From assembly GCA_963836205.1 (NCBI GenBank), contig CAWIIV010000007.1:64001-128000 (forward strand): a DNA stretch of 64,000 nucleotides, in the 5' to 3' direction. Below, piece after piece: positions 28,595 through 45,652 of this stretch. The notes beneath the pieces are model-generated. The model was not told the DNA's origin, did not search any database, and was given only the letters and a program-made list of their open reading frames with translations. The translations under genes and the position numbers were made by a program. This DNA is from an uncultured Acidimicrobiia bacterium. Lineage in GTDB: Bacteria > Actinomycetota > Acidimicrobiia > Acidimicrobiales > AC-14. Positions within the stretch are counted from its first letter, which is position 1. Each line of letters starts with the position of its first letter.

Positions 28595-28602
28595 CGGATC
28601 GG

Positions 28603-30275: not shown

Positions 30276-30285
30276 GTCCGGGGGC

Positions 30286-31131: not shown

Positions 31132-31414
31132 GTCGGGCCACCCGCCGTTGCAGGACGTCGAGGATCACGATCACCGCCAGCGAGATGGCGAGCAGGATGA
31201 CCGCCACCGCGGCGGCTCCGGCCGGGTTGTCGTTCTCGATACTGCTCAGGATGCGCACCGAGGTGACCTCGGTCTTGAAGGGCAGGTTTCCCGAGAGCAG
31301 CACCAGCGACCCGTACTCGCTCACCCCCCGGGCGAACGAGAGCCCCGGTCGAGCTACGCCTCGGGGCACTCGTTGGGCGCCTGGGGTCCTCCAGCAGCTC
31401 GGCGAGCATGCCAC
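31124..31414 (-). pseudogene. cysT: sulfate ABC permease, 3' remnant
   Basis: LSFARGVSEYGSLVLLSGNLPFKTEV...ENDNPAGAAAVAVILL; 5' two-thirds absent. Confidence 0.8.
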
Positions 31415-31825
31415 CCGGCCGGCGGCGCCTCCGGGCCACGAGCGTGGTGCGGGGCGGTGGCGGTCCGGCCATGGCTACGACGAGGTCGTCGTAGCCAGCA
31501 CGGCGATGACGGCACTGTGCCGGCTGTGACCCCATCACCGGCGCGGGGGTCCTGCTGCCCCCGCCCCTGATGGTGGGCGGGGTCGGGCACCACGGGCGAC
31601 GATCATCTGGTCCGGATCGCATACATCGCCCGGCTCCAGTGACGTGTTCTCTCTCACTGGCCGCCGTACGCGAACTGCTGTGGGGCTGGGACCAGGGCCC
31701 GCCCGCACCGAGGTGTGGGGTAGGCCTTGCCGGCCGGCCTCGCCACCGCCCAGTTGGGATACCATCACGGCGCGGCTCGGGCGCGACACGACTTTCAGAT
31801 TTCAAATCGAGAAAGGATCCGTCCC

Positions 31826-32353
31826 ATGAGGAGTCGGCTCTCACTACTCATGGTTGGCGCGCTTACGGCGACCATGCTACTTATCGTCACCCCGGCGGCG
31901 TCGGCGGGGCCGCAGCCGGTCGACCTTACGTGCGTAGGCAACTTGGCGGCCACGTTCAGCCCCGGCGTCACCTTGGCGTCCGTTGACCAGACGGTGACCG
32001 TGGTACTCAAAGGCGGCAGTGATTTCCAGTCTGGTCTGGCCTGCACTTCGGCCAACGCCATCGCATACCAGGGTGTGACCGCCATTGTGAATTTGACCGG
32101 GAAGGTGTCTTGTATCGTCGGGAACCTTGTGGGGAACGGCACCTTGGCTTGGGAAAACGGTGATGTCTCCACTGTGAGCGTGCGGGCAACCACCATCGGG
32201 GCGGTTCCACTCATCGACGCCCGGATCACCAGTGGCGCGCTGATCGGGTCCCGAGTGGTCGTGGTGGGTGTCCCGACTGCCTTCTCTGGCCTCTGCATCA
32301 CGCCGGTGACTCGAATCTCCTACGTGGGCGCAGGTGCCTTCCTGAAGCTGTAG
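31826..32353 (+). CDS. secreted beta-rich hypothetical protein with 4 Cys
   Basis: AAAGGA RBS, signal peptide ending ASA, lower GC3. Confidence 0.7.
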   Translation: MRSRLSLLMVGALTATMLLIVTPAASAGPQPVDLTCVGNLAATFSPGVTLASVDQTVTVVLKGGSDFQSGLACTSANAIAYQGVTAIVNLTGKVSCIVGNLVGNGTLAWENGDVSTVSVRATTIGAVPLIDARITSGALIGSRVVVVGVPTAFSGLCITPVTRISYVGAGAFLKL

Positions 32354-32387
32354 GCAGCGGCGCCATCGCCCGGCAGTCAGCGTAGGG

Positions 32388-33752
32388 TCATCTTGGCGAA
32401 TCCTCGGTTCTCGGGGGAAGTCTGACGACCTCGAACAGGGCGGCCAGGTAGGCCTCGACGAAACGCCCGGCGGCTGCCGGCCCGAACAATCGGCGGCAGT
32501 AACGAAACGACAGGTGGAGCCGTCCCCCGGCCGTGACCGCGCCGACCGCGAGGCCAAGGGGCATACGCGCCGGGCCGGAGAAGAGCATCTCCTGGATGTC
32601 GCCGGCGCCGGTTCCGAACGACGGCACATCGGCGAGGCGGCCGAGATTGGAAAGCATGGCGGTGTCGATCAGCCGGTTGCCGGTGATGGGGACTAGGCCC
32701 ACGATGCCCCGCTTGGCCCACAGCGGGAGCAGCGCGGAGTGACCCAGAGCAGCAAGCATCGCCAGGCCGATATCCGAGGAGTTCTTCTTGCGGCGGGTCT
32801 GAGTGGTTACAGCGTCCAGTGCGTTGGCCGCCGTGCGGCGGCTGCGGCGGCGAGTCGACACCCGCGCTGTGAGGCTGAAGTTCCCCGCGATGTCCTGACG
32901 CCACTGCGGTGGGCGGAGGTTGATAGGCACGATGACGCCGACCCGGCCGCACCGTGCTCCGTGCGCCGAGTTCCATCTCGCGATCGCCAGATGGAGCGCG
33001 GCGAGGAGAGCGTCGTTGACGGTTCCTCGGCGGTCGCCCTCCACGAGGGCCTTCGTGGTTTGCGCAGGCAGTGAGACCTGGCAGAACCCGTACCCGATCT
33101 CGTCGGTTGCACCGTCTTTCGCGACGCGGGCTGCGGGCGCGACCAGGTCCCGCAGCCCTGCTGCGAGAGAGAGCCAGCGGCGAGCGGTGACGCGGGCCTC
33201 GGCGACGCTCGCCAGGCGCGCCGGCAGCTCGCGGGCCTCCTCGAAGGCCAGCAGGGGAGCGGGGTCGGGCCGGCCGGCGTACGCGTTGGCTATGGATTGC
33301 AGTACCCGCACGGCGCCGACGCCGTCCATTGCCGCATGGTTCACGTTCATCATGAGCACGTCGCCGTCGGGATGGCGGGCCAGCCATACGCGCAGGGGAG
33401 GCGACTCCGAAAGAGGCACCGCCACGCTCAGCAGTTCGGCGCGGGCGACGCCGAGGGCGACATCATCGGGACAGTCGACGACCCGAAGAGCGTTGATGTC
33501 GGGCGCAGATGGGAACGCCCAGATGTCGCGATGCCCGGTACTGGGGGACGCTACCTTCCGGGCCCTCGCCATGGGGTGGATGGCAATGGCGCGTTCGAGC
33601 GCCGACCGCAGCCGATCCTCATCGAGGGATCCACTGACCCGGGTCTCAAGCTGGATGCTCCATGGGGCGGCCTCGATGTCGAGAAGGTGGAACACCTCGT
33701 CGAGCATGCTAAACGGCACCACATCGAGGGGAGGCGGTAGCTCGGAGACCAA
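32388..33752 (-). CDS. condensation-domain / PapA-like CoA-dependent acyltransferase
   Basis: NHAAMDG (HxxxDG), TVNDALLAA, VPINLR, LSNLG; start uncertain (TTG). Confidence 0.85.
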   Translation of the reverse strand: MVSELPPPLDVVPFSMLDEVFHLLDIEAAPWSIQLETRVSGSLDEDRLRSALERAIAIHPMARARKVASPSTGHRDIWAFPSAPDINALRVVDCPDDVALGVARAELLSVAVPLSESPPLRVWLARHPDGDVLMMNVNHAAMDGVGAVRVLQSIANAYAGRPDPAPLLAFEEARELPARLASVAEARVTARRWLSLAAGLRDLVAPAARVAKDGATDEIGYGFCQVSLPAQTTKALVEGDRRGTVNDALLAALHLAIARWNSAHGARCGRVGVIVPINLRPPQWRQDIAGNFSLTARVSTRRRSRRTAANALDAVTTQTRRKKNSSDIGLAMLAALGHSALLPLWAKRGIVGLVPITGNRLIDTAMLSNLGRLADVPSFGTGAGDIQEMLFSGPARMPLGLAVGAVTAGGRLHLSFRYCRRLFGPAAAGRFVEAYLAALFEVVRLPPRTEDSPR

Positions 33753-34000
33753 ATGCTCGACAACCTCGGATCAGAAGTGAGCGAATATTCCGGGAGGCTA
33801 CCGTCTCTTGGAAGGTTGATGAATGAGCCTGATCGGAGCCCCAGCGGAGGGCCGTACTGCCTCGTAGACAAAGGGCCAGAGGTTCATCAAGTCATCCTGG
33901 CGTCCCGAACGGGCCGGACAAATGTCGATGCTGGGGCTCGAATGTGGCTTCCGGTGGTCGAGCGAGCAGCGAAGTGTCTGGGAGTGGGAGAGTTCCACGC

Positions 34001-35020
34001 GTGACCCCGCAACTCGCTGTCGAGGTCCGGAATCTTGAGAAGTGCTACGAGAACGCGGGCGTGCAGGCCCTCGGCGACGTCAGCTTCGACGTCGAGGAAG
34101 GTGAGATTTTCGGCTACCTCGGCCGCAACGGCGCTGGGAAGTCGACCACCGTTCGCATCTTGACCACCCTGTTGCGTCCGAGCGCGGGGCGCGCTCTGGT
34201 GCGGGGGTTCGACGTCTGCACCCAGCCGGGCGAGGTGAGGCGGGTGATCGGAGCGGCACTGCAGCAGGCGGCGCTCGACGACCTCATGACCGGGCGAGAG
34301 CACCTGCTTCTCGCGGCGCGACTCGCCGGCCTCGGCAAGGTCGGATCGCGTCACCGTGCGGCGGAGCTTCTCGAGGTTTTCGGCCTTGGCGCGGCCGCCG
34401 ACCGCATCGCAGCCAGGTACTCCGGAGGCATGCGCCGGCGCCTCGACGTCGCCATGGCCATGATCCGCCGACCGGGCGTGCTCTTCTTGGACGAACCAAC
34501 GACAGGGCTCGATCCCCAGGGCCGTCGAGCCCTGTGGGCTCTCGTCAGCGACTTCCGAGACCAGGGTTCGACTGTGTTCCTCACCACTCAGAATCTGCAA
34601 GAGGCCGACGAGCTCGCCGCCCGGGTGGCAATCGTCCACGAAGGACGGATCGCAGCCATCGGCAGTCCCGCGGAGCTGAAGACTCAGTTCGGTGGAGCGA
34701 CGACGATCCGTTTGCGGGCAGACGCCGCCAACATGGCCCGGGTCCGGGGCGCGACCAACGACCAGCAGTGCAGCGAGAGCGGCGACGGGTGGTTCACCCT
34801 GATGGTGGCCGGGGGCGAGGCCGCGGTCCCATCGTTGATAGCCCGCCTCGGTGAGGCGAAAGCATCCATCGAGCACCTCAGTGTTCGGTCCCCGAGCCTG
34901 GAGGACGTCTTCGTCAACCTTACGGGCTCCGAGATCGAGTCTTCGGCTACGTCCGATGACGCCGGATCCCTGGCCGCCATCCAACGCGGGCGGGGCGTGG
35001 TTCCTGGGAGCTCGCGGTGA
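34001..35020 (+). CDS. DrrA-type ABC exporter ATP-binding protein
   Basis: GRNGAGKS, YSGGMRRRLD, LFLDEPTTGLDP, PSLEDVF. Confidence 0.92.
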   Translation: MTPQLAVEVRNLEKCYENAGVQALGDVSFDVEEGEIFGYLGRNGAGKSTTVRILTTLLRPSAGRALVRGFDVCTQPGEVRRVIGAALQQAALDDLMTGREHLLLAARLAGLGKVGSRHRAAELLEVFGLGAAADRIAARYSGGMRRRLDVAMAMIRRPGVLFLDEPTTGLDPQGRRALWALVSDFRDQGSTVFLTTQNLQEADELAARVAIVHEGRIAAIGSPAELKTQFGGATTIRLRADAANMARVRGATNDQQCSESGDGWFTLMVAGGEAAVPSLIARLGEAKASIEHLSVRSPSLEDVFVNLTGSEIESSATSDDAGSLAAIQRGRGVVPGSSR

Positions 35021-35790
35021 GCCCGCTCGACCAGGTCCGGCTCCTCCTGGTACGAAGCCTCCGGGAAGGGACCCGCAACCCGCTGCTGGCCTATGCCCTC
35101 CCCGTGGTCATCCCGTTGGCCTTGCTCGTGTTGGTCGCGACAACCCTGTCCCGGGCCACCGAGCTGCCCGGCTTCCCTACCGACAACTACGCAGCGTGGA
35201 TAACGCCTCCAGTCGTCATGCTGACGGCGATGACGGGCGTGGGCTTCGCCGCGACGAGCCTTGTGATCGACATCCAGTCCGGCTTCATCGACCGTCTCCG
35301 CCTCCTCGATGCCAGGCCGCAGGCGCTGCTGCTCAGCCGCCTGCTCTTTGACGTACTGCGAGTGCTCTTCGCCGGCGCCGTCGTGCTGGTCCTTGGTGTC
35401 GTGCTGGGAACCGAGGTCCACGGCGGGCTGGTGGGGCTGCTGATGCTCTTCGGCCTGCTGACGCTGTGGGCCGCGGCCTACGGCGGTCTGTACTTCGTCG
35501 TCGCACTCACGACGATGCTGCCCCAGGCCCCCCTCGCCCTCCTGGCGATCGCCTTTCCGCTGGCATTCCTGTCGACGTTGTTCTTGCCCGACTCCCTGCT
35601 GCCGCGCTGGGCGGAGGTCGCCTCCCGCTGGAACCCGTACAGCTATATGGCCGATGCGAGCAGGGTCCTGATCACCGGGCCCTTCTCCGCCGCACCAGTC
35701 GCTCGAGCGGTGGCGGTGGCCGTGGGTGTCCTGCTGGTCACCCTGGTGGTTTCGTTGCGATCCTTCTCGCGCGCCGTCGGTGCCCGGTAA
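35017..35790 (+). CDS. ABC-2 (DrrB-type) permease
   Basis: 6 TM segments, DIQSGFIDRL, LPRW...WNPYSY; GTGA overlap with the ATPase. Confidence 0.9.
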   Translation: MSPLDQVRLLLVRSLREGTRNPLLAYALPVVIPLALLVLVATTLSRATELPGFPTDNYAAWITPPVVMLTAMTGVGFAATSLVIDIQSGFIDRLRLLDARPQALLLSRLLFDVLRVLFAGAVVLVLGVVLGTEVHGGLVGLLMLFGLLTLWAAAYGGLYFVVALTTMLPQAPLALLAIAFPLAFLSTLFLPDSLLPRWAEVASRWNPYSYMADASRVLITGPFSAAPVARAVAVAVGVLLVTLVVSLRSFSRAVGAR

Positions 35791-36046
35791 GCCAATGGCG
35801 CCGTGGGCGATCCGATCTTAGGAAGCTTCGCCTCGTTGGTTGACATGTCGGGTTCGTGATGCTGTGCTCTTGCGAGCGGCGCGCACCGCCGTGCTGCACG
35901 GTTTGCTCCAGCAGGACCCGTTCTTCCATAGGTAGTACTGACGACATCATGCGGCCTCCAATCCGTGCGCTGCTGGGGATGTCAACACTTGACGCTGAAA
36001 TCATTTCCGCGACCAGGCCCCAGTAAGCAGACTCCCAGGAGAGGCC

Positions 36047-36360
36047 ATGATGCAATCATTGCAAAGGCACAAGTCCGTGGTCATGGCGGCCGCCCTCACA
36101 GCGACGTTCGCCAACGCGACGACGGTGGGGTTGTAGACGCCGCGGTGACCCATTCAGCTGACGTGAGGCATCCGAGATGCGTCTCACGGTTGGTGTGGTC
36201 CAAGTCGACCAACGAAAGTGGTTCAATGACGGAGCAAAGCTACGACACCGGGGGACCATTCGCGGGTGACGCGGGGCCTCTCCCGCTGGTCGCCGGCGTC
36301 AGTCCTGCAAGCTGCTCGACTCCGACGGGGTTGACGACAGCGATGTTTGCCAACGCTTCG
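36047..36360 (+). pseudogene. possible degraded secreted-protein gene
   Basis: AGGAG RBS then MMQSLQRHKSVVMAAALTATF...stop; a later frame has GPFAG...SCSTPTGLT, resembling the ends of the 31826 protein. Confidence 0.35.
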
Positions 36361-36436
36361 ACTGGTCGGGTTATGAAGCGGAACCCCCGATTGCGATTCG
36401 ACTCTCCTTATCCCACTGGCACGACAGACCTTTCTC

Positions 36437-39400
36437 ATGAGTGATCCCGCCGCTTATCGCGACGACGCGCTCGCGATTGTCGGATTGGCGTTTCGGCTTC
36501 CGGGCGGCGTCACCACATTGGACGATTTGTGGTCGGCCTTGTCCACGAGACGGAATCTCATAACTGATATTCCTGCTGACCGTTTCGAGACGTCACGCTT
36601 CTTCGACCCGGTCCCGACTCGCGCCGGGAAGGCCTTTACGTTCGCCGGGGGATACATCGGTGACATCACCGGTTTCGATGCGGACTACTTCGGTATATCG
36701 CCCCGCGAGGCGACGTTGATGGACCCACAGCAGCGACTTCTCCTGGAGATGACCGCGGACGCGTTCGACGACGCCGGCATCGATCCGCAGTCCGTGGCCG
36801 GCACCGATACCTCGGTGTTCGTGGGTATGTCCGACATGGGTTACCTCGCCCTGCAAATGTGCTCGCCGGAGACAATTGCCTCCCATACGATGTCCGGCGG
36901 CGCCCTGTCGATCGCCTCGAACCGTCTGTCGTATGTGTTCGACCTTCGTGGGCCGAGCATGACCCTCGACACTGCCTGCTCGTCGGTGATGGTCGCGTTG
37001 CACCAGGCGTGCCAGACGGTGCTCACTGGGCGCAGCGCCCTGGCCGTGGTCGGGGGCGTTCACCTCCTGCTCGGGCCGCACCCGTTCATCGGTTTCGCCA
37101 AGGCCTCGATGCTGTCACCGCTCGGACGTTGCGCGACCTTCTCCGCCGACGCCGACGGCTACGTGCGGGCCGAAGGCGGAGGGGTGCTACTGGTCAAGCG
37201 GCTGTCGGCCGCCGTGGCCGCGGGGGATCGGGTGCACGCGGTGATCGTGTCCACCGAGGTCAACACGGACGGCCGGACCAGTGGGATGACCGTGCCCAGC
37301 GTCGAGATGCAGGCGGCGTTGCTGCGGACCGTTTACCAGCGAGCCGGGGTGGGCGCCGACGACCTCTCCTACTTCGAGGCGCACGGTACCGGTACGCCTC
37401 TCGGTGACCCCATCGAATGCGAGGCGGTTGGGCGGGCGCTCGGGCGGCGGCGCACGCCCGGTCAGCCCCTGCCGATCGGGTCGGTGAAGACGAATCTCGG
37501 CCACATGGAGCCTGCATCCGGCATCTCGGGCATTCTCAAAGCCATCCTGGTGCTCCAGCATCGGACGATCCCTCCGTCATTGCATGGCTCACCGCCGAAC
37601 CCGTTGATCGACTTCGCAGCCTTGGGATTGGCGCCAGTTCACGAGGCCCAGCCGGTCGAGCGAGGCCGGGCCCTGGTCGGGGTGAACAGCTTCGGCTTCG
37701 GTGGCGCCAACTGCCATGCGCTGCTGGCGGAGGCGCCGGCCGCTCGGTCGACGGCTCGACCAGAGGTCGAGCTGCCACTGGTCGTGTCGGCGCGCAGCGA
37801 ACCCGCGCTGATCCAGGCCGTCGGCCGGCTGGCCGAGCGGCTGGCAGGTTGCGCCCAGGACGACTACTACGACCTCTGCCACACGGCCGCCCGCAGGGCC
37901 CGGCACCCGCACCGAGCCGTGGTGCTGGCGTCCACGCCCCGATCCGCGGCGGATCGACTGGCCGCGGTGGCCGGGGGCGACGCTGCCGACGGTGCTGCCA
38001 GCGGAATCGCGGCGAAGGACGGGCGGGTCGTGTTCGCCTTCTCGGGCAACGGGTCGCAGTGGCCCGGCATGGGCGCCGACCTCATAGCGTCGGAACCGGT
38101 GTTCCAGGCCGCTATCGAGGAGGTCGACCGGCTCCTGTGCCGGCGGCTGGGATGGTCGGTGCTGGAGGAGCTGGTCGCGCCGCCTGAGCGATCACGATCG
38201 AGCGACACCGCTTTCGCCCAGCCGGCGCTGTTCGCGGTCCAGGTCGGGCTGGTGGCCTTGTTCGCCGCCCGCGGCATCCGCCCGGCGGCGGTCACCGGCC
38301 ACAGCGTCGGCGAGGTGGCAGCGGCCTACGCGTCGGGGGCTCTCGACCTGGACGCGGCGTGCCAGGTGATCGCTGGCCGCAGCGAGGCCCAGGCCCTCAC
38401 CGCCGGCCAGGGCCGGATGGCGGCGGTCGGCTTGAGCCCGGCTGAGGCGGAGCAGGCGCTGGCGCCCTTCTCCGGTCGCCTCGAGATCGCGGCGATCAAC
38501 ACGGACAGGGACGTGACCGTGTCTGGTGAGGCGGCAGCCGTCGCCGAACTGGCAACACGGCTCGACAGCGCGGTGTTCTTCCGCCAACTCGACCTCGACT
38601 ACGCCTTCCACTGCCGCCATATGGACGCCATCGAGCAGCCGCTGCGGGCGTCGCTGCGCGGCCTTCGCCCGTCAGAGGCCACGGTGCCGTTCGTGTCCTC
38701 CGTCACCGGCGGCCCTGTCGGTGGCGCCGAGCTCGACGCCGACTACTGGTGGGCGAACGTCCGCCAGCCCGTTCGATTCGCCTCGGCCGCCGACCATCTT
38801 CGGGCGCACGGATACGACGTCTTTCTCGAGATCGGGCCCCATCCGGTCCTTACCACCTACCTGCGCCGGATCACGGCGTCGAGCGGCCCAACCGCGGTCG
38901 TGCCGACGCTCAGGCGCGACACCGACGGACCCGCCGCCATTCGCACCGCGACGGCCGCGGTGATGGCCGTCGGCGCACGAGTCGACGAACGTCTGTCTCT
39001 CTCGGGACCGGGGCGGGTCGTGGACCTGCCCCCCTACCCGTGGCAGCGAGAGAGGTACTGGAACGGAACGCCTGGTCAATGGGTTCGCAGCAGTGGCGAC
39101 GGCACCATCGATCACCCACTGTTGGGGGAACGCATGCCCGTGCTGGAGCCCACGTGGCTGGCCACGGTCGAACCTGCGCTTGTGCCGTGGCTGGCGAGTC
39201 ACAAGCTCTGGGGTGCCGTCCTCTGGCCCGCGGTCGGGCACGTGGAAATGGCTATGGCCGCGGGGCGGCGAGTGCTGCATGCTCCCGTCGAGGTCACCGA
39301 CCTGGCCATCCCGGCGCCGCTGGTGCTGCCGTGGAACACGGGCATGGACGTACGGATCCAAACGTCGATGTCGGGCGACGACGGCGTCGTCCGGATCGCC

Positions 39401-42400
39401 AGCACCACTGGCACCGGGACCGACTGGCGATTGCACGCCCAGGGACGGGTCCGGCGGCTGCTGTGCGACGCGCCTCCAGCCGTCGACCTAGGCGTACTCG
39501 AGGAGCGCACCACGAGGCATTGGGATGCCGACGACTTCTACGCCCTCCTCGACCACGTCGGACTTCAGTACGGCCCGTTCTTACAAGTGTTGCGCGACGT
39601 GTACGCGGGCCCTGCAGACGTGGTGGCCTACTACAGCACCGCCATCGATCAAGAGGGTTACGAGGCCCATCCGGCGATCCTCGACGGAGCGCTCCACGCA
39701 GGAGTGCCCCTTCTGGAGGGCCGTTCGTTCATGCCTGGTGCCATCGACCGGGTCCGGCTGTGGCGCCAGCCGTCATCCTCCGGCTTCGTCCATGTCCGTC
39801 AGCGCTCACGGACCAGGCGCGAAGCGTGCTGGGACGTCCTCGTTGGCAACGACGACGGCACCGTGGTCGCCGAGCTGCGGGGTTGCAGGATGCGCCGGGC
39901 CGACGCCGAGCAGGCGCCTTCGGTGCACTACGCGACCGTGCTGCGGGCCGCGCCCAGAAAGCAGGAGCCCGCAGCGCCGAGCCCTCTGCCCGCGCCCGTT
40001 CAGCTTGTCGCCTACGCCCAGAGCCAGATCGAAGACCTCCAGGCTGGTTGGAACCAGAGAGGCTACGAGCGACTCGACGCCACGGCGAAGGTGGCGGCCG
40101 CCCATTTCGCAAGGGCGGCGGTCGACGCCATGCTGGCCGGACAGGAGGAGTTCACCACCGACGACCTCGTGGCCGCCGGGATGTTGCCCAAATACGTGCG
40201 GATGTGGCAGCTCGTGTCCCGTCTCTGCGTCGAGCACGGCCTGCTCGAGCGGCAGAGCAGTGACCGGTGGCGTACGACCGGCAGGAAAGCGAAGCGACCC
40301 AGGGATTTCGCCGAAGGTTTCCTGCTCGCCGAGCCGCGGTTCGCCCCGGACGTGCTCATGTCGGGACGATTGGGGAACCATTGGGCGGACCTTCTTTGTG
40401 GACGGCGCAAGCCAGTCGACCTGCTGTTCGGCGGTGGCGGGTCCGACACCGTCGAACATTTCTACGACACCTCGCCGATCGCAGGAATGCTCAACCACCT
40501 GACGAAGTCGCTGGTGGAGGCCATTGTCCAGAGTTGGCCGACCGACCGTCCGCTCCGGGTTCTGGAGGTGGGAGCCGGGACGGGTGGCACGACGGCCACC
40601 CTCCTGCCAGTTCTTCCCCCGGAACGCACGCGGTACGTGTTCACCGATGTGTCAGCCGCCTTTCTCACGGCGGCCGAAGCACGGTTCGAGACGTACGGGT
40701 TCGTCGATTACCGCCTGCTGGACATCGACCAGGACCTCCGCGAACAAGGTTTCGACGAGACGACTTTCGACCTGATCGTGGCGGCAAACGTCCTGCACGT
40801 GGCGCGGGACCTACGGCGCGCCCTGCGGCGACTCGGCTGCCTTCTGTCGCCGGGCGGCCAGATGCTGGCATGCGAGGTTCACGATCCGGAACTGCTCGTC
40901 GCGCCGCTCGGGTTCCTGGACCAGTTCTGGTCGTTCACCGACAGCGATCTTCGACCCGAGTCGGCTCTGCTCTCTCGCGAGCGATGGTCAGGCGTGTTCC
41001 GCGAGTGCGGGTTCGACGAGGTGGTCCAATGCGGGGCCTCCCAGGAGCCGGCGCGCTCCGACTTCTCGGTGACCCTGGCCCGCCGGGATCGCCGCCCGAC
41101 GGCACCATCGACATCGCCTCGCGCCGAGCCGGGCGGGTCGTGGGTCCTGGCAGTGGAGGACCCAGGCGACGTCGGTGTTGCGTCGGAGTTGGCGGACTTG
41201 CTCTTCGCTGGGGGGGCGGAGGCGGTCGCGGTCATCGCTGAGGCAGACGGAGCGTTGACGGCGGAGCGAGTGCAAGCTGGTGGGTCGATCGTCTTCGTGC
41301 TGGGCGGCGACAGCAGCGGCGACGCGGCGGGAGCGGTCTCCCGCGCCGTTCGACGATTCGGCGTTCTGCGTGCCTTTGCCACGGCATGTGAGGCCTTCCC
41401 ACCAGGTCACGGGACGAGGTTATGGCTGGTGACCCGGCCGAGCGGCGCTCTGCCCGAGCCGGAGCGGCCGCTCGTGCCCGAGGATGCTGCCCTCTGGGGC
41501 GCGGCACGGGTCCTGGCCAACGAACGCACCGACGCTGTGATCAGGAGGATCTCCTGGCAACGCAGCCAGGACGCCACGGAGGACGCCCGTCGACTGGCGC
41601 TCGAGCTGCTCGATCCCTCCGAGGAGGACGAGGTCGTCCTCACCAGGGCAGGGAGGTTCGTGCCCAGGCCGCTCGAGCGCCATCGGCCGCTGCGCCTGGT
41701 TGAGCGGCGACAACAGGCCTACGAGCTGGAGCTCCGCAATCAGGGTCTGTCCTACGAGCTGGCCTGGGTGGAGGCCGCGCCCCTGCGCCCTCTACCCGAC
41801 GAGGTGGTCGTCGAGGTGAGGGCGACGGCGCTCAACTACAGGGATGTCATGATCGCCATGGGCACCATGCCGCCCGACGCCGAGGGCGCCGTTGCCGGTG
41901 GCGAGCAGTTGATCGGGCTGGAGTATGCCGGGGTGGTCGCGGCGGTGGGAGGCGACGTCGAGACGCTGCGGCCGGGTGACCGTGTATGCGGAGTCGCCTA
42001 CCGGTCGTTCGCATCCCACGTGGTCACCAAGGCCGAATTCGTTCTGGAGATACCGGACGACATGGATTTCGCCGGCGCCGCGACCCTGCCGGTGGCTTTT
42101 CTCACCGTGCATCACAGCCTCGACCACCTCGCCCGGCTGGCCCCGGGCGAGACCATCCTGATCCATGGCGCCGCCGGCGGCGTGGGCCTGGCCGCCATCC
42201 AGTACGCGAACCTGGTCGAAGCCAGCGTGATCGCAACTGCGGGAACGGAGGCCAAGCGCGACCTCCTGTCGCTGCTCGGGGTCGACGATGTTCTCGACTC
42301 GCGCAGCATGGCCTTCGCCGACCAGGTCATGGCGCTCACCGACGGCGTCGGCGTCGACGTCGTGCTCAACTCCCTGAGCGGCGAGGCGATCTCCCGAGGG

Positions 42401-43930
42401 CTGGAGCTGCTCCGACCGCACGGGCGGTTCGTCGAGCTGGGCAAGCGCGACATCTACGCCAACAGCCGGATCGGGCTGCGGGCTTTCCGTAACAACATCA
42501 GCCTGCTCTGCGTCGACGTCTCGCAGTTGGCGGGCACCCGGCCGTCATTGGCCCGATCGGAGAGGCGCGAGATCGTTCGCCGCATCCGCGCCGGTGAGTA
42601 CCGGCCGCTGTTGTACCGGGCCTTCCCTGCCCGCCGGATCGACGAGGCGTTCCGGCTTCTTCAGCACTCCCGCCACATCGGCAAGGTGGTGGTCACCTTC
42701 GACGACCCCGTTCCCGTCGAACACAGCCCGGTGCCGGTCCGGCTCGACGCGGAGGCGACGTATCTGGTCTCGGGAGGCTTGAGCGGCATGGGTGCGGCGG
42801 TGGCGCGGGGTCTCGATCGTTGGGGCGCCCGCCATCTCGTCCTGGTCGGCCGGCGAGGCATGGCATCCCCGGAAGCACCGGAGCTGGTGGAGTGGCTCAC
42901 CCGCCACGGGGTCGAGGCCACCGTGTACGCCGCCGACGCCGCCGACCCGGTGGCCATGGCCATGGTGGTCGCGGCCACCGACGACGCTGGCCATCCACTC
43001 CGAGGGGTGATTCACGCAGCCATGCAGCTCGACGACGGCCTCATCGCCGACCTCGGCGACGAGCGCGTCCGGACCGCAGTGACGCCCAAGTTGGGGGGGG
43101 CCATGGTGCTGGACACCCTGACGCGTAGCCGCCCCCTCGACTTCTTCGTCGGCTTTTCGTCCATGACCGCGCTTGTCGGAAGCGTCAGGCAGGCCAACTA
43201 CTCAGCAGGGAACTTGTACGTCGAAGCGCTCACCCGGGCCCGGAACGACGCCGGCCTGCCGGGGCTGGCGGTCGCCTGGGCCGGGATCAGCGACGTCGGC
43301 TACGTCGCCCGCCACGGTCTTCGGGATTCCCTGTCCGGAATGGGGCTGTTGTTCCTCTCGCCCGACCAAGTGATGGCGGCCCTGGCCGATCTTTTGGGCC
43401 TCCCCGTAGGTGTCGTAGGGGTTGGCGGCATCGACTGGGGACGGTTGAGCGCGGTGCTGCCGTCGGCGACGACCCCCCGGTTGGCCGACCTGTTACCGCC
43501 GCTCATCGAGGGCACGGAGTATCGGCGCGACGAGTTCGTGAAAGTCCTGTCCGATGCCTCGCCCGAGGACGCCCGGTGTCTCGTGGAGGACTGCCTGGTG
43601 CAGGTCGTCGCCGGGATCCTTCAGTCGCCCCTGGACAGAATCGACCGCTCCAAGCGACTCAGCGACATGGGCATGGACTCACTGATGATGGTCGAGCTGG
43701 TTACGAGCACATCGGAACAGTTCCAATGCAACATCCCGCTCGCGGAGCTGGCCAACAGCGCCGGCACCATTCGGGCCATAGCCGAGATCATTCTTGGGAG
43801 GCTTGGTATTCAGGCCGGTGGATTGAACGGCGAGGCCAGCGTCGAGAAGACGCCGCGGGATCTCGACTCGGTTGCGGCGGGCCGACCTCGTACGACCTCG
43901 GAGCCGGCGACGGACGTCGTCGTCGCATGA
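36437..43930 (+). CDS. single-module highly reducing type I PKS (KS-AT-DH-cMT-ER-KR-ACP)
   Basis: KS DTACSS/EAHGTGT/KTNLGH; AT GHSVG, YAFH; DH HKLWGAVLWP, HPAILD; MT VLEVGAGTGG; ER IHGAAGGVG; KR SGGLSGMG, NYSAGN; ACP GMDSL; no TE. Confidence 0.95.
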   Translation: MSDPAAYRDDALAIVGLAFRLPGGVTTLDDLWSALSTRRNLITDIPADRFETSRFFDPVPTRAGKAFTFAGGYIGDITGFDADYFGISPREATLMDPQQRLLLEMTADAFDDAGIDPQSVAGTDTSVFVGMSDMGYLALQMCSPETIASHTMSGGALSIASNRLSYVFDLRGPSMTLDTACSSVMVALHQACQTVLTGRSALAVVGGVHLLLGPHPFIGFAKASMLSPLGRCATFSADADGYVRAEGGGVLLVKRLSAAVAAGDRVHAVIVSTEVNTDGRTSGMTVPSVEMQAALLRTVYQRAGVGADDLSYFEAHGTGTPLGDPIECEAVGRALGRRRTPGQPLPIGSVKTNLGHMEPASGISGILKAILVLQHRTIPPSLHGSPPNPLIDFAALGLAPVHEAQPVERGRALVGVNSFGFGGANCHALLAEAPAARSTARPEVELPLVVSARSEPALIQAVGRLAERLAGCAQDDYYDLCHTAARRARHPHRAVVLASTPRSAADRLAAVAGGDAADGAASGIAAKDGRVVFAFSGNGSQWPGMGADLIASEPVFQAAIEEVDRLLCRRLGWSVLEELVAPPERSRSSDTAFAQPALFAVQVGLVALFAARGIRPAAVTGHSVGEVAAAYASGALDLDAACQVIAGRSEAQALTAGQGRMAAVGLSPAEAEQALAPFSGRLEIAAINTDRDVTVSGEAAAVAELATRLDSAVFFRQLDLDYAFHCRHMDAIEQPLRASLRGLRPSEATVPFVSSVTGGPVGGAELDADYWWANVRQPVRFASAADHLRAHGYDVFLEIGPHPVLTTYLRRITASSGPTAVVPTLRRDTDGPAAIRTATAAVMAVGARVDERLSLSGPGRVVDLPPYPWQRERYWNGTPGQWVRSSGDGTIDHPLLGERMPVLEPTWLATVEPALVPWLASHKLWGAVLWPAVGHVEMAMAAGRRVLHAPVEVTDLAIPAPLVLPWNTGMDVRIQTSMSGDDGVVRIASTTGTGTDWRLHAQGRVRRLLCDAPPAVDLGVLEERTTRHWDADDFYALLDHVGLQYGPFLQVLRDVYAGPADVVAYYSTAIDQEGYEAHPAILDGALHAGVPLLEGRSFMPGAIDRVRLWRQPSSSGFVHVRQRSRTRREACWDVLVGNDDGTVVAELRGCRMRRADAEQAPSVHYATVLRAAPRKQEPAAPSPLPAPVQLVAYAQSQIEDLQAGWNQRGYERLDATAKVAAAHFARAAVDAMLAGQEEFTTDDLVAAGMLPKYVRMWQLVSRLCVEHGLLERQSSDRWRTTGRKAKRPRDFAEGFLLAEPRFAPDVLMSGRLGNHWADLLCGRRKPVDLLFGGGGSDTVEHFYDTSPIAGMLNHLTKSLVEAIVQSWPTDRPLRVLEVGAGTGGTTATLLPVLPPERTRYVFTDVSAAFLTAAEARFETYGFVDYRLLDIDQDLREQGFDETTFDLIVAANVLHVARDLRRALRRLGCLLSPGGQMLACEVHDPELLVAPLGFLDQFWSFTDSDLRPESALLSRERWSGVFRECGFDEVVQCGASQEPARSDFSVTLARRDRRPTAPSTSPRAEPGGSWVLAVEDPGDVGVASELADLLFAGGAEAVAVIAEADGALTAERVQAGGSIVFVLGGDSSGDAAGAVSRAVRRFGVLRAFATACEAFPPGHGTRLWLVTRPSGALPEPERPLVPEDAALWGAARVLANERTDAVIRRISWQRSQDATEDARRLALELLDPSEEDEVVLTRAGRFVPRPLERHRPLRLVERRQQAYELELRNQGLSYELAWVEAAPLRPLPDEVVVEVRATALNYRDVMIAMGTMPPDAEGAVAGGEQLIGLEYAGVVAAVGGDVETLRPGDRVCGVAYRSFASHVVTKAEFVLEIPDDMDFAGAATLPVAFLTVHHSLDHLARLAPGETILIHGAAGGVGLAAIQYANLVEASVIATAGTEAKRDLLSLLGVDDVLDSRSMAFADQVMALTDGVGVDVVLNSLSGEAISRGLELLRPHGRFVELGKRDIYANSRIGLRAFRNNISLLCVDVSQLAGTRPSLARSERREIVRRIRAGEYRPLLYRAFPARRIDEAFRLLQHSRHIGKVVVTFDDPVPVEHSPVPVRLDAEATYLVSGGLSGMGAAVARGLDRWGARHLVLVGRRGMASPEAPELVEWLTRHGVEATVYAADAADPVAMAMVVAATDDAGHPLRGVIHAAMQLDDGLIADLGDERVRTAVTPKLGGAMVLDTLTRSRPLDFFVGFSSMTALVGSVRQANYSAGNLYVEALTRARNDAGLPGLAVAWAGISDVGYVARHGLRDSLSGMGLLFLSPDQVMAALADLLGLPVGVVGVGGIDWGRLSAVLPSATTPRLADLLPPLIEGTEYRRDEFVKVLSDASPEDARCLVEDCLVQVVAGILQSPLDRIDRSKRLSDMGMDSLMMVELVTSTSEQFQCNIPLAELANSAGTIRAIAEIILGRLGIQAGGLNGEASVEKTPRDLDSVAAGRPRTTSEPATDVVVA

Positions 43931-44982
43931 CGATCGCCATCACCGGCGCCACCGGCTTTCTGGGGTTACGGGTGCTGCCGCGGCTGATGGAACGTGGCTG
44001 CCCGATCATTGTTCTGGCGAACGCCGGCAGCGCGCCCGCGCAAGACCGGATCGAGCGTCACTTCCGGCGCAGCGGCGGGCCGATCGGTCGGGCCCGCGAC
44101 CTCACCGTCGTGCCTATCGACCTCACCAGGCCGCTGCTAGGCCTGTCGCAGCCGGAGTTCGCGGCGTTGGCGGCTCGCCTCACCGAGATCTGGCATTGTG
44201 CCGGATCGATCGATTTGGTCGGACTCGAGCTGGTCCGACGGGTCAACGTGCACGGCACCTACGCCATGCTCGAGCTGGCCGGCGCGGGATCGGCGACGAT
44301 CTTCCACGTCAGCACTGCCTTCGTCGCCGGCGGACGCATCACTGGGACCATCGGCGAGGGCGACCTTGACGGCTCGTACGGCTTTGAGAGCCCTTATCAG
44401 CAATCCAAGTTCGACGGCGAGCAGGCGATCCGCGATTGGTCCCGGCGCAACGACCGACCCGCCGTGATCTTTCGGCCGAGCATTCTCGTCACCGACCGGC
44501 GGCCGCCGCCGGGAGAGTCAAGTCATCCGCTCTTCTCCGCCCTCCGCCTTACGGACCGCATCCAGGCGATGATGGCGCGTGAGGTGGCACCCGGTGAGCG
44601 TGTCCCGATCCGGGCGGCAGCAGACCCCGACGCCCACCTCAATCTCATCCCGGTCGAGCTGGCGGCCCGGCTGATGATCGAGCTCGCCGAGCGGGTCCAG
44701 CCGATAGGTGTGTACACGGCCCACATCACCTATCCGCACGAGGTCACCGTCGCCACTCTTCTGTCCGTGTTCGAACAGCGTTACCCCGTCGACCTGATCC
44801 TGAGCCTTGAGTGGCCCGAGGATCTCACGATCCTGGAATCGTTGTTGCGGACCCAGATGCGCGCCTTCACACCCTTCGCCTTCCACCATCGCTATTACGA
44901 CTGTGCCGCGCTCCGAGACGCAGGCCTTGAGCCGTCGGACGCTCCTCCGCTCGACCTGCCCTACCTGCTCGCGGGCACCTGA
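43927..44982 (+). CDS. stand-alone thioester reductase-like SDR (NAD_binding_4)
   Basis: ITGATGFLG, WHCAG, HVSTAFV, YQQSK, FRPSI; ATGA overlap with the PKS. Confidence 0.88.
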   Translation: MTIAITGATGFLGLRVLPRLMERGCPIIVLANAGSAPAQDRIERHFRRSGGPIGRARDLTVVPIDLTRPLLGLSQPEFAALAARLTEIWHCAGSIDLVGLELVRRVNVHGTYAMLELAGAGSATIFHVSTAFVAGGRITGTIGEGDLDGSYGFESPYQQSKFDGEQAIRDWSRRNDRPAVIFRPSILVTDRRPPPGESSHPLFSALRLTDRIQAMMAREVAPGERVPIRAAADPDAHLNLIPVELAARLMIELAERVQPIGVYTAHITYPHEVTVATLLSVFEQRYPVDLILSLEWPEDLTILESLLRTQMRAFTPFAFHHRYYDCAALRDAGLEPSDAPPLDLPYLLAGT

Positions 44983-45445
44983 CCGGACGACGACGGGAGC
45001 CGACATCGCGGCGAACTCAGGAACGCCTCAGAGGCCGCACCGAATCCTCAGCCGGGGCTCACCAGCGACGTCGAAGCCGACTGCTCCGGGCAGACCAACG
45101 TGGACACTGGCCGCGGGGAGGCACCTGCAACGCGGTCGCTCACTGGGTCCCTTGTCCCGGCCGGACCGAGGTAGACGCGCGACGCGTTTGTTGGTTCGTA
45201 TGGGATCAGCCCAAAACGAGATTTTTCGAGCAGTACCAGGCGACCTCGAAGGCGGCTGGGTTTGAGCGGCGGGACTCTGGAGGGCATTCGCCTAGCCACC
45301 GTCGAGCATATCGCCGGGGCGGCGTGCAGGTTCACGTCGCCCGGCTCGCCTGACGGGTCGCTCCGCCAGTCCGGGAGCAGCCGAACGAGGGCCATCAGCC
45401 ACCAGCAGCACAGGGAGGCCAGTACCCTCTGACGAGATTTGTGGA

Positions 45446-45492
45446 GAGCGGACGACGGGAATCGAACCCGCGTTCTCAGTTTGGGAAGCTGA
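45446..45492 (-). repeat. att site (duplicated tRNA-Gly 3' part)
   Basis: GAGCGGACGACGGGAATCGAACCCGCGTTCTCAGTTTGGGAAGCTGA matches 59757-59803 with 2 mismatches. Confidence 0.92.
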
Positions 45493-45581
45493 GCGGAGGG
45501 AGTCTCGCGGCCTGCTCGAATCCGCGAAAGTCCTGGTCAGAGGCTATGTGGGGTGTCCGCCAATGACCACTGGAACTTGCC

Positions 45582-45614
45582 CGTGACCGTGAGTTAGGTC
45601 ACGTTTAGGTCACG
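45582..45614. repeat. putative integrase arm-type sites
   Basis: AGGTCACG at 45596 and 45607 (11-bp period) plus inverted CGTGACC at 45582; the same motifs occur at 59640-59685. Confidence 0.65.
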
Positions 45615-45652
45615 CCGGGCCCGACGGCGGCGCCGGCTGGCATCATGAAAGG

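What the first reader, a model, noticed from the sequence alone, without database searches (positions are those of the whole stretch)
31826..44982. Compact reducing-PKS cluster with reductive release, acyltransferase and exporter
Seen: one KS-AT-DH-MT-ER-KR-ACP module with canonical motifs and no TE, coupled to a stand-alone thioester-reductase-like SDR. Beside it are a divergent HxxxDG acyltransferase, a DrrAB-type ABC pair and a secreted beta protein. Known: this domain order occurs in fungal HR-PKSs and WcbR/RkpA-type bacterial PKSs, and PKS + PapA + DrrAB + carrier protein is the logic of mycobacterial wax-ester lipids. Inference: iterative synthesis of a C-methylated long-chain alcohol that is esterified and exported as a surface lipid. 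No WcbT-like PLP enzyme, capsule genes, acyl-AMP ligase or PPTase are visible in the cluster.
Basis: partly seen in the sequence, partly recalled or inferred. Interest (0 to 1): 0.7.

Follow-up and report, generated by a model that had tools for sequence, protein, structure and literature searches.

The report
PKS lipid cluster with reductase, exporter
An intact six-gene set in an uncultured soil-type actinobacterium most likely builds a methyl-branched fatty chain, reduces it to an alcohol, esterifies it and pumps it out to a small secreted barrel protein, an arrangement that parallels the wax lipids of mycobacteria but uses different parts.

Summary
Window 31826-44982 holds six intact genes: a secreted 175-aa protein (SEC), a condensation-fold acyltransferase, a DrrA/DrrB-type ABC pair, a 2497-aa KS-AT-DH-cMT-ER-KR-ACP synthase with all catalytic motifs, and a 351-aa stand-alone thioester reductase (TR) overlapping the synthase stop by 4 nt.

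The linkage is not chance. A genome of the same family (G428) carries four paralogous copies. One has all six genes in a different order, and all seven of its SEC genes lie in these clusters. Variants swap parts in a telling way. A same-genus genome has a true WS/DGAT plus a prenyl-synthase fusion in place of the C-type acyltransferase and TR. Large-genome relatives pair the same synthase type with a TR, glycosyltransferase and MMPL.

Best reading (about 0.5): a branched acyl chain is released reductively as an alcohol, O-acylated, exported and bound by a new secreted 8-stranded beta-barrel family. This is the logic of PDIM and wax esters. However, the acyltransferase is neither PapA nor WS/DGAT by sequence, branching is by cMT rather than methylmalonyl, and the KS-AT is of bacterial modular type, not fungal.

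Product, chain length and iterativity are untested, and no MIBiG comparison was possible. It is a new variant of a known kind, of moderate interest.

The parts
31826..32353 (+). SEC: a secreted 175-aa protein of an uncharacterised actinobacterial family. It has a signal-like N-terminus and 4 invariant Cys, and is predicted to be an 8-stranded up-and-down beta-barrel.
   Evidence: Translation. No Pfam or NCBIfam hit. Only 53 representatives among 1.84 billion proteins. Alignment A1. AF2 pLDDT 87.2. VIA-align best match 2q03 at Z 12.2, rmsd 2.8 over 118 residues. The hydrophobic face of the strands is the conserved one.
32388..33752 (-). Stand-alone condensation-fold acyltransferase with motif NHAAMDG. 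The TTG start is uncertain, and the database form is 439 aa.
   Evidence: PF00668 at 41.1 bits (cut-off 30.6). WS_DGAT_cat at 19.1 bits, below its cut-off. TIGR02946 at 47.8 bits against a cut-off of 309.95. AF2 pLDDT 85.2. Foldseek finds NRPS C/E/Cy domains at about E 1e-22. Nearest solved sequence is SgcC5, 4znm, at 1.2e-5.
33753..33943 (.). A 191-bp divergent intergenic region between the acyltransferase and the ABC operon. It is a presumed promoter region.
   Evidence: Sequence. No sigma-70-like consensus was found.
33944..35020 (+). DrrA-type ABC ATPase with the DrrA C-terminal domain.
   Evidence: ABC_tran 94.9 bits and DrrA1-3_C 41.5 bits. TIGR01188 drrA 315.9 bits against a cut-off of 312.45.
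35017..35790 (+). ABC-2 type permease (DrrB-like). It overlaps the ATPase gene by 4 nt.
   Evidence: ABC2_membrane 67.7 bits. TIGR01247 drrB 60.1 bits, below its cut-off of 223.
36047..36363 (+). Two remnants of a second SEC paralog ('type a'), which is intact just upstream of the synthase in G428:C16. The first is a 29-codon fusion of its N- and C-termini (36047-36133). The second is a C-terminal fragment (36181-36363).
   Evidence: tblastn: 64% over 22 aa, 92% over 12 aa, and 65% over 48 aa (E 3.5e-13).
36437..43930 (+). Single-module type I polyketide synthase of 2497 aa. Domains: KS 36470-37585, AT 38030-38974, DH 39113-39913, C-methyltransferase 40523-40897, ER 41795-42694, KR 42755-43285, ACP 43595-43789. 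It has no loading module and no thioesterase.
   Evidence: Pfam and motifs. The cMT is closest to CurJ 5thy at 1.3e-51, with His and Glu aligned. The KS-AT is closest to DEBS at 620 bits, then MAS 559 and LovB 449.
43927..44982 (+). Stand-alone thioester-reductase-type SDR of 351 aa, translationally coupled to the synthase through an ATGA overlap.
   Evidence: NAD_binding_4 113.4 bits. TIGR01746 102.5 bits, below its cut-off of 213. Nearest solved chains are MxaA R 4u7w at 2.5e-16, 8v1x and 4dqv. GATGFLG, STA and YQQSK are read and are invariant in A3.

Best explanation
This is a self-contained cluster for an exported, methyl-branched polyketide-derived ester lipid.

Shown by sequence:
- One fully reducing synthase module has a malonyl-type AT motif and an intact SAM-dependent C-methyltransferase.
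- A translationally coupled stand-alone reductase is of the type that releases carrier-bound thioesters.
- A free-standing condensation-fold acyltransferase carries the catalytic HxxxDG.
- A DrrAB-type exporter is present.
- A secreted beta-barrel has a conserved hydrophobic interior.

Inferred:
- The synthase is primed by a cellular acyl thioester and works iteratively, as mycocerosic acid synthase does. It makes a saturated chain whose methyl branches come from SAM rather than from methylmalonyl-CoA.
- The TR acts in trans on the ACP thioester and gives the aldehyde and then the primary alcohol.
- The acyltransferase esterifies that alcohol with a second acyl thioester, possibly another chain still on the synthase ACP, to give a wax-ester-like lipid.
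- DrrAB moves the lipid across the membrane, and SEC binds it in the wall.
For: Domains and motifs.

PKS-TR and ABC_A-ABC_B 4-nt overlaps.

The nearest solved relatives of the TR are terminal R domains of assembly lines: MxaA, a type I PKS TR, and the Mtb Nrp R. That MxaA and Nrp R reduce to the alcohol is recalled, not tested.

The acyltransferase has the carrier-protein-dependent C-domain fold. Its nearest solved sequence is SgcC5, which I recall as an ester-forming free-standing C enzyme.

Conserved linkage:
- G428:C9 has PKS 71%, TR 70%, acyltransferase 67%, ABC 72% and SEC 38% identity, in another gene order.
- G428:C16 has PKS 88-90%, TR 84%, ABC 71-73% and three SEC genes.
- PKS and acyltransferase clusters share four contig lengths in public assemblies.

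Part-swapping in variants:
- G401 has a prenyl-synthase fusion, WS/DGAT and DrrAB beside the same synthase type, with no TR in the spans fetched (16-20 kb).
- G306 has glycosyltransferase, epimerase, TR, PKS and MMPL.
- A TR is adjacent in 5 of 16 loci of genus g47, and an MMPL lies within the span in 5, with a partial match in a sixth.

All 7 SEC genes of G428 lie in its PKS clusters.

PPTases exist elsewhere in the genome, with 4 matches.
Against: - No product, transcript or protein evidence exists. No RNA run was available.
- Iterativity and chain length cannot be read from sequence.
- No acyl-AMP ligase or loading domain explains priming.
- The wider family of the acyltransferase is not synthase-linked in 14 of 14 other places, so its recruitment here is lineage-specific. 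G428:C16 lacks it within the 36 kb fetched.
- Two of the three full SEC genes of the window's own genome lie away from any synthase, so SEC is not strictly dedicated.
- The cluster lies in a region of lower G+C beside an integrative element and holds SEC pseudogene remnants.
- Three of the four G428 synthase copies have broken frames. Sequencing errors in these low-contig assemblies could cause that.
- G428 copies carry a CsaB-like pyruvyltransferase (3 of 4) that this model does not explain.
Confidence: 0.5

Rival explanations
1. The same enzymes work with a different wiring. The condensation-fold enzyme is the true release catalyst, as PapA5 or SgcC5 are. It transfers the ACP-bound chain to a non-polyketide acceptor such as a sugar, polyol, amine or wall polymer. 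The TR serves another step, giving an aldehyde or alcohol by-product or reducing a different thioester.
For: The C-domain fold and closeness to carrier-dependent enzymes. G428 copies carry a CsaB-like polysaccharide pyruvyltransferase (3 of 4 copies). Distant TR homologues sit directly after such transferases without any synthase (L059 and L060). G401 manages without a TR.
Against: The window has no sugar or amine-supplying gene. The TR is translationally coupled to the synthase, and it is retained in all three G428 copies where the region after the synthase could be read.
Confidence: 0.2
2. The product is a small diffusible bioactive polyketide. The ABC pair is a self-resistance pump. SEC is an extracellular enzyme, such as a dirigent- or Diels-Alderase-like cyclase, rather than a lipid carrier.
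For: The drrA model is named for antibiotic resistance. SEC's structural neighbours include the Diels-Alderases PloI4, AbnU, Cyc15 and PyrI4, as well as dirigent proteins (Z 8.4-10.9).
Against: A fully reducing module with ER gives saturated chains that are poor cyclisation substrates. Related clusters carry lipid-specific parts: WS/DGAT and MMPL. No tailoring oxidases are present in the window cluster.
Confidence: 0.15
3. The cluster is a decaying passenger of mobile DNA and makes nothing today.
For: G+C is 0.66-0.70 against 0.72-0.77 in the flanks. An integrative element with a tRNA-Gly repeat starts 456 bp after the TR. SEC remnants are present, and paralogs in G428 are broken.
Against: All six genes in the window are open, with gene-like codon bias. 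Every catalytic motif checked is intact.
Confidence: 0.1

Closest known systems
Mycobacterial phthiocerol dimycocerosate system (Mas, PapA5, DrrABC, MmpL7, LppX)
   Same: The logic is the same: an iterative reducing synthase makes methyl-branched acyl chains, a condensation-superfamily enzyme esterifies them to an alcohol, a DrrAB-type ABC transporter exports, and an extracytoplasmic protein is needed for transport. The roles of DrrABC, MmpL7 and LppX are stated in the abstract of PMC11539658, seen in the search listing. The roles of Mas and PapA5 are recalled.
   Different: Branches here are inferred to come from an in-line C-methyltransferase with a malonyl-type AT, not from methylmalonyl-CoA. 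The alcohol would come from a trans TR, not from Pps synthases. No chain named PapA5 is among the 6 listed by the PDB sequence search at E<=1. There is one permease gene, not DrrB plus DrrC. There is no MmpL and no FadD ligase. SEC is a closed 8-stranded barrel; that LppX has a different fold is recalled. The host is not known to have a mycolate outer membrane.
Bacterial wax-ester pathway (fatty acyl reductase plus WS/DGAT)
   Same: An NAD_binding_4 reductase makes a fatty alcohol and an HxxxDG acyltransferase esterifies it. The same-genus variant G401 carries a true WS/DGAT (PF03007 121.7 bits, PF06974 53.9 bits).
   Different: The window enzyme is below the WS/DGAT cut-offs. The acyl chain is made by a dedicated synthase. 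The product is apparently exported rather than stored.
Heterocyst glycolipid pathway of cyanobacteria (Hgl synthases with reductive release, HglT, DevBCA) - recalled, not checked in a paper
   Same: Synthase-made chain, thioester-reductase release to an alcohol, conjugation, then export through an ABC system to an envelope layer. The g47 relatives with glycosyltransferase, TR, PKS and MMPL look closest to this.
   Different: The window has an acyltransferase instead of a glycosyltransferase, a single module with a cMT, and a different exporter type.
CurJ-type C-methyltransferase domains and fungal HR-PKS (LovB)
   Same: The domain order KS-AT-DH-MT-ER-KR-ACP equals that of fungal highly reducing synthases. 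The cMT aligns with CurJ 5thy at 1.3e-51 with the His and Glu conserved, and with LovB at 7e-25.
   Different: The KS-AT scores 620 bits to DEBS module 3 but 449 to LovB. It is therefore a bacterial cis-AT-type module, not a fungal-type enzyme.
SgcC5 and other free-standing condensation enzymes
   Same: SgcC5 is the best solved sequence match of the acyltransferase (4znm) and shares the same two-lobed fold. Its ester-forming chemistry is recalled.
   Different: Similarity is only E 1.2e-5 over residues 37-170. The substrates are unrelated.

Membership tests
Type I reducing polyketide synthase module | KS, AT, DH, ER, KR and ACP domains above the family cut-offs, with catalytic motifs | tested here: met
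   Pfam scores. Motifs DTACSS/HGTGT/NLGH, GHSVG, HPLLG, LIHGAAGGVG, NYSAGN and GMDSL.
PKS C-methyltransferase (CurJ type) | SAM motif I and the His/Glu catalytic pair | tested here: met
   LEVGAGTGG. In the alignment to CurJ 5thy at 1.3e-51, NVLH and the Glu 26 residues later are aligned. That this pair is catalytic is recalled.
Iterative (MAS-like or fungal HR) synthase | Repeated use of one module, with product length programmed | not testable with these tools
   Only indirect evidence: a single module with no loading module and no TE.
Mycobacterial MAS/Pks2 family | Equivalog-level similarity, and methylmalonyl-specific AT without a cMT | tested here: not met
   NF041183 at 1054 bits against a cut-off of 2400. 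A cMT is present, and the AT has YAFH, which I recall as the malonyl type.
Fungal HR-PKS clade | KS-AT closest to the fungal enzymes | tested here: not met
   DEBS 620 bits, MAS 559 and LovB 449.
Thioester reductase (terminal R domain type) | NAD_binding_4 fold with TGxxGxxG and YxxxK | tested here: met
   PF07993 at 113.4 bits. GATGFLG and YQQSK, invariant in A3. TIGR01746 at 102.5 bits is below its cut-off of 213.35.
PapA (polyketide-associated acyltransferases) | Sequence kinship with PapA5, plus HxxxD | tested here: inconclusive
   No chain named PapA5 is among the 6 PDB sequences listed at E<=1 or among the top Foldseek rows shown. The list is cut, and I did not verify that PapA5 is in the copy. 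The HxxxDG motif is present.
WS/DGAT wax-ester synthases | Scores above the PF03007 and TIGR02946 cut-offs | tested here: not met
   19.1 bits against 23.6. 47.8 bits against 309.95.
NRPS condensation-domain superfamily | PF00668 above its cut-off, the two-lobed CAT-like fold, and HHxxxDG | tested here: met
   41.1 bits against 30.6. Foldseek E 1.8e-22, TMq up to 0.74. The motif is NHAAMDG, so the first His is replaced.
DrrAB-type ABC exporter | DrrA subfamily ATPase and DrrB subfamily permease | tested here: inconclusive
   DrrA is met: 315.9 bits against 312.45. DrrB at 60.1 bits is below its cut-off of 223, but ABC2_membrane at 67.7 bits is met.
WcbR/RkpA capsule-lipid synthases | A neighbouring WcbT-like PLP acyltransferase and capsule export genes | tested here: not met
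   No such family was found among the 31 ORFs scanned across 22.8-62.6 kb.

The most novel reading that the evidence does not exclude
SEC founds a new family of secreted, disulfide-stapled 8-stranded beta-barrels. They would serve as dedicated extracytoplasmic carriers or placement factors for synthase-made lipids in actinobacteria that lack the mycobacterial LppX/LprG system. The module 'cMT synthase, alcohol supplier, O-acyltransferase, DrrAB, SEC' would be a mobile, mix-and-match kit for building a waxy envelope layer outside the Mycobacteriales.
Probability: 0.3. Interest if true: 0.7.

Novelty: new variant of a known kind. Interest (0 to 1): 0.55.

Why it matters
If the reading holds, envelope wax-type lipids made by a dedicated synthase are not a speciality of mycobacteria. 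They would also occur, built from non-homologous parts, in an uncultured actinobacterial family.

The single-module cMT synthase type is common: 15 of 151 sampled genomes of one large-genome genus. My five searches of the held paper library for the synthase type found no paper that characterises it. This compact, intact six-gene version is a practical entry point for assigning a product.

It would also give a first function to a small, unannotated family of secreted barrels. And it would show that SAM-dependent branching can stand in for methylmalonyl-based branching in lipid synthases.

Tried and rejected
I repeated it on residues 1180-1780.
2. The genome-contig scan with the acyltransferase gave one distant locus, L016, with no synthase.
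3. The metagenome scan with the TR alignment A3 returned 80 loci. All were at most 42% identical (best segment), and none had the cMT synthase. One, L079, has a 35% KS-like match. The degenerate patterns were too generic, so this says nothing about distribution.
4. The earlier-findings look-ups returned nothing.
5. Paper searches for the domain string, for bacterial HR-PKS with cMT and TR, and for MMPL/Streptomyces/fatty alcohol found only fungal or unrelated work. The passages of PMC5301196 that I read concern a synthase without a cMT.
6. Rfam found no match in 26-52 kb. The promoter scan found 0 sites, and terminator-like sites were not enriched: 8 against 5.9 expected.
7. Sequencing runs: no RNA holder was listed, and only small-share DNA holders from one study. 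I did not lay reads.
8. Foldseek of SEC against the PDB gave no match at E<=0.001. VIA-align was needed.
9. The Atlas look-up of SEC gave only unnamed actinobacterial clusters.
10. SEC as an outer-membrane barrel (OprF, OmpW and PagL at Z of about 10) was considered and thought less likely. The hydrophobic strand face is the conserved one and carries an invariant Cys (C36) and the invariant Trp. This was judged without coordinates.
11. A translation of the ER-ACP part for a PDB search failed on a frame error and was not repeated.
12. No complex prediction was run.
Full report
WHAT IS THERE. The window is G000:C7:64001-128000 of a 4.05-Mb, 25-contig, 88.6%-complete genome. G+C is 0.72-0.77 up to 26 kb and after 60 kb. 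It is 0.66-0.71 across 26-46 kb and 0.57 at 46-50 kb.

Codon-position G+C and Pfam define six genes in 31826-44982:
- SEC, 31826-32353 (+), 175 aa.
- A condensation-fold acyltransferase, 32388-33752 (-).
- ABC_A, 33944-35020 (+).
- ABC_B, 35017-35790 (+).
- A 2497-aa synthase, 36437-43930 (+).
- A 351-aa thioester reductase (TR), 43927-44982 (+).

ABC_A/ABC_B and synthase/TR each overlap by 4 nt.

THE SYNTHASE. Pfam gives KS, AT, DH (two models), methyltransferase, ER (ADH_N and ADH_zinc_N), KR and PP-binding in that order. There is no thioesterase. Every motif I checked in the translation is canonical:
- KS: DTACSS, HGTGT and NLGH.
- AT: GHSVG and YAFH. I recall the xAFH form as marking malonyl-specific ATs.
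- DH: HPLLG, YGP and DGALH.
- MT: LEVGAGTGG.
- ER: LIHGAAGGVG.
- KR: an LDD motif and NYSAGN.
- ACP: GMDSL.

The methyltransferase is closest to the solved CurJ C-methyltransferase (5thy, E 1.3e-51). Its NVLH histidine, and a glutamate 26 residues later, align to the same residues of CurJ. I recall these as the catalytic pair.

The KS-AT didomain scores 620 bits to DEBS module 3, 559 to mycocerosic acid synthase, 449 to LovB and about 415 to animal FAS. The enzyme is therefore a bacterial cis-AT-type module. It merely shares the domain order of fungal highly reducing synthases. NCBIfam's Pks2 equivalog is far below its cut-off, at 1054 against 2400 bits.

THE REDUCTASE. NAD_binding_4 scores 113 bits. 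The nearest solved sequences are the MxaA terminal reductase (4u7w, 2.5e-16), a type I PKS reductase (8v1x) and the M. tuberculosis Nrp reductase (4dqv). GATGFLG, the ST of VSTAF and YQQSK are present, and they are invariant among five homologues. It has no carrier domain of its own, so it must act in trans. That step is inferred.

THE ACYLTRANSFERASE.
- PF00668 scores 41 bits, above its cut-off. WS_DGAT_cat at 19.1 bits and TIGR02946 at 47.8 bits are both far below theirs.
- The AF2 model (44-row alignment, pLDDT 85.2) is a two-lobed condensation fold. Foldseek E is about 1e-22 to NRPS C, E and Cy domains, TMq is 0.74 to AzeD, and the free-standing SgcC5 is also matched.
- SgcC5 is the best solved match by sequence, at 1.2e-5.
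- The motif is NHAAMDG.
- The family is large and well conserved. 568 proteins reach E<=0.001 among the 8000 scored, and the 120 listed are 53-85% identical. Most come from uncultured Actinomycetota and Acidimicrobiales, and none has a functional name.
- It is not generally synthase-linked. In a 401-genome sample of the phylum, 13 genomes including G000 had a match at E<=1e-30. None of the 7 closer places (41-57% identity), the 6 weaker ones in genus g47 or locus L016 lay near a synthase or TR. Their neighbours are unrelated to one another.

THE EXPORTER. ABC_A reaches the drrA subfamily cut-off (315.9 against 312.45 bits) and has the DrrA C-terminal domain. ABC_B is an ABC-2 permease that scores below the drrB cut-off.

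SEC. No Pfam or NCBIfam family matches it. A search of 1.84 billion representatives found only 53 relatives at E<=0.001. The Atlas lists only unnamed actinobacterial clusters.

In 31 aligned sequences, four cysteines and one tryptophan are invariant. AF2 gives eight long antiparallel strands after a signal-like helix (pLDDT 87.2). Foldseek found nothing at E<=0.001.

VIA-align's best matches are:
- An uncharacterised Shewanella barrel, 2q03: Z 12.2, rmsd 2.8 over 118 residues.
- The Diels-Alderase PloI4: Z 10.9.
- Dirigent proteins and allene oxide cyclase: Z about 9.
- 8-stranded outer-membrane barrels: Z about 10.

In six of the eight strands the hydrophobic face is the more conserved and nearly free of charge, while the other face is polar and variable. 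That fits a soluble barrel with a hydrophobic interior. I had no coordinates to check which face points inward.

IS THE LINKAGE REAL? Among 61 relatives, 5 genomes including G000 match the cMT-linker part of the synthase at E<=1e-20. G428, of the same family, has four paralogous clusters:
- C9 has synthase 71%, TR 70%, acyltransferase 67%, ABC 72% and two SEC genes, in the order PKS-TR-acyltransferase-ABC_B-ABC_A-SEC-SEC. That is the same six gene types, rearranged.
- C16 has ABC, SEC, PKS (88-90%, with one frame break near residue 801), TR (84%) and two SEC genes. No acyltransferase lies in the 36 kb fetched.
- C2 has a multiply broken synthase and TR, with two SEC genes.
- C1 has a broken synthase at a contig end.

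All 7 SEC matches in G428 lie in these clusters.

Public protein clusters agree. The 64%-identical synthase cluster and the 67%-identical acyltransferase cluster share four contig lengths, and the 61%/85% pair shares one. This is a proxy, not a proof, of co-location.

In the window, the 646-bp gap before the synthase holds two remnants of the SEC 'type a' gene, which is intact at that position in G428:C16.

Against strict dedication:
- G000 has two further full SEC genes on other contigs, with no synthase or DrrAB beside them.
- SEC matches occur in 7 of 61 relatives, some of which lack a synthase hit.

These genomes are low-contig assemblies. The frame breaks may be sequencing errors rather than decay.

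VARIANTS THAT INFORM THE MECHANISM. G401, of the same genus, carries two nearly identical copies of a different layout. A 608-aa fusion of a squalene/phytoene-synthase domain and a cis-prenyltransferase domain is followed by a true WS/DGAT (PF03007 121.7 bits, PF06974 53.9 bits), then DrrA (70%) and DrrB (62%). These face a 2531-aa synthase of the same architecture (47%). No TR or SEC lies in the spans fetched.

In genus g47 the genomes are 5.5-11 Mb. It is probably Streptomyces, judging by the named hits, but that is an inference. There, 15 of 151 sampled genomes have a roughly 2500-aa synthase of this type. Of the 16 loci examined:
- G306 reads glycosyltransferase, epimerase, TR, PKS, MMPL.
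- A TR is adjacent in 5 of 16 (L037, L043, L044, L049, L051).
- An MMPL lies within the 20-kb span in 5, with a partial match in a sixth.
- A glycosyltransferase with an epimerase occurs in 2.
- An unrelated condensation-type protein occurs in 1.
- The rest are diverse: P450s, an AMP-ligase with KAS III, regulators.

The recurring theme is a branched-chain synthase, a source of an alcohol, a transferase that conjugates it, and a lipid exporter. The family is heterogeneous, and these counts come from a sample.

MECHANISM. I propose the following, at about 0.5.
1. The module is primed by a cellular acyl thioester and extends it, probably iteratively, with malonyl units that are C-methylated and fully reduced.
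2. The coupled TR reduces the ACP thioester to the aldehyde and then the alcohol.
3. The condensation-fold enzyme esterifies the alcohol with a second acyl thioester, perhaps another chain on the same ACP. Its fold is that of carrier-protein-dependent enzymes.
4. DrrAB exports the ester.
5. SEC binds it outside the membrane.

The domains, motifs, couplings and synteny are shown. Each chemical step is inferred.

Priming is unexplained, since there is no ligase or loading domain. The PPTase must come from elsewhere. Four PF01648 matches exist, one of them beside another synthase cluster on contig C20.

The rivals are listed separately: direct transfer to a non-lipid acceptor, a diffusible metabolite with a resistance pump, and a decaying passenger cluster.

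CONTEXT. A tRNA-Gly(CCC) gene lies at 59755-59828 (-). A 55-nt copy of its 3' part, 91% identical, lies at 45438-45492, and a 26-nt core occurs exactly twice against 0 expected. Between them are an HTH/M78 regulator, a RecD-like helicase, a tyrosine integrase, a Schlafen/AlbA protein and an ISL3 transposase. An integrative element of about 14.3 kb therefore sits 456 bp after the TR.

The cluster itself is outside that element. It lies in a 26-45 kb stretch of lower G+C that also holds a sulfatase, a GNAT, a Panacea-domain protein and fragments of a sulfate ABC system. The synthase type was not found in the other same-order families sampled: 0 of 24 genomes outside family f1. Together this points to lateral acquisition, which is an inference.

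COMPARISON AND NOVELTY. By function, the closest known system is the mycobacterial PDIM pathway. The abstract of PMC11539658 names DrrABC, MmpL7 and LppX as export factors (seen in the listing). Mas and PapA5 are recalled. The bacterial reductase-plus-WS/DGAT wax-ester route and the heterocyst glycolipid pathway (recalled) also share steps.

Membership in the PapA, WS/DGAT, MAS/Pks2, fungal HR-PKS or WcbR groups was either not met or could not be settled (see the membership table).

My five searches of the held library for the synthase type found no paper on this bacterial synthase type. That library lacks most subscription journals, and I could not query MIBiG, so prior characterisation elsewhere is not excluded.

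I rate this a new variant of a known kind. The SEC family is the most original element.

Noticed in passing
window 45438-59828: An integrative element of about 14.3 kb at tRNA-Gly(CCC). A 55-nt direct repeat (91%) of the tRNA 3' part lies at 45438-45492 and 59749-59803. Inside are a tyrosine integrase (52435-53649), a RecD-like helicase (50833-52422), an HTH plus M78 peptidase regulator (46834-48042), two 420-430-aa ORFs with no family in a 57% G+C stretch (48155-50709), a Schlafen/AlbA_2 protein (53680-55410) and an ISL3 transposase (57917-59239).
   Followed up: partly
window 53485-53642 and 57364-57521: A 158-nt direct repeat (83% identity). One copy overlaps the 3' end of the integrase gene, and the other lies 3.9 kb downstream before the ISL3 transposase. 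It is unexplained.
   Followed up: no
window 26256-31844: A stretch of lower G+C left of the cluster. It holds a sulfatase (26256-27965), a GNAT (28121-28594), a SocA/Panacea-domain ORF (28603-30003, overlapping the next gene), a CysA-like ABC ATPase with a TOBE domain (29280-30275) and only a 129-aa fragment of a BPD permease (30272-30661). The sulfate-uptake operon looks truncated or frameshifted.
   Followed up: no
L030:813-2108, L031:9148-10389, L033:5291-6100; L059:3860-5065, L060:8767-9969: A CsaB-like polysaccharide pyruvyltransferase sits beside 3 of the 4 synthase clusters of G428 but is absent from the window. In two metagenome loci a 34-36% identical homologue lies directly upstream of a TR-like gene with no synthase. 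This suggests an independent pyruvyltransferase-reductase pairing.
   Followed up: partly
L034:2771-4597 and L035:2648-4474: A 608-aa fusion of a squalene/phytoene-synthase domain and a cis-prenyltransferase domain lies directly upstream of a WS/DGAT, DrrAB and a cMT synthase in G401. This may be a prenyl-alcohol ester variant. The two copies are nearly identical, and L035 has a long poly-T run just before the gene that looks like an assembly artefact.
   Followed up: partly
L055 (G000:C20:70000-89999): A second synthase cluster in the same genome. It has a PfaD-like nitronate-monooxygenase-domain protein, an AT protein, a 2111-aa KS-AT-DH protein and a hydrolase/glycosyltransferase fusion. 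A PF01648 match in a 219-aa frame lies at C20:74489-74827. This is a possible source of the PPTase for the window's synthase.
   Followed up: no
L030:17008-18471; L029:6996-8213: The paralogous clusters in G428 are flanked by a group II intron reverse transcriptase/maturase and by a Fic-domain protein. Like the window copy, they lie in mobile, variable DNA.
   Followed up: no
proteins P0009-P0012 and others; L009:2596-4389, L010:3030-4817, L011:2819-4711: About half of the acyltransferase family members are 580-650 aa long. They have an N-terminal extension of about 150-180 residues with no Pfam match. Its nature was not examined.
   Followed up: no
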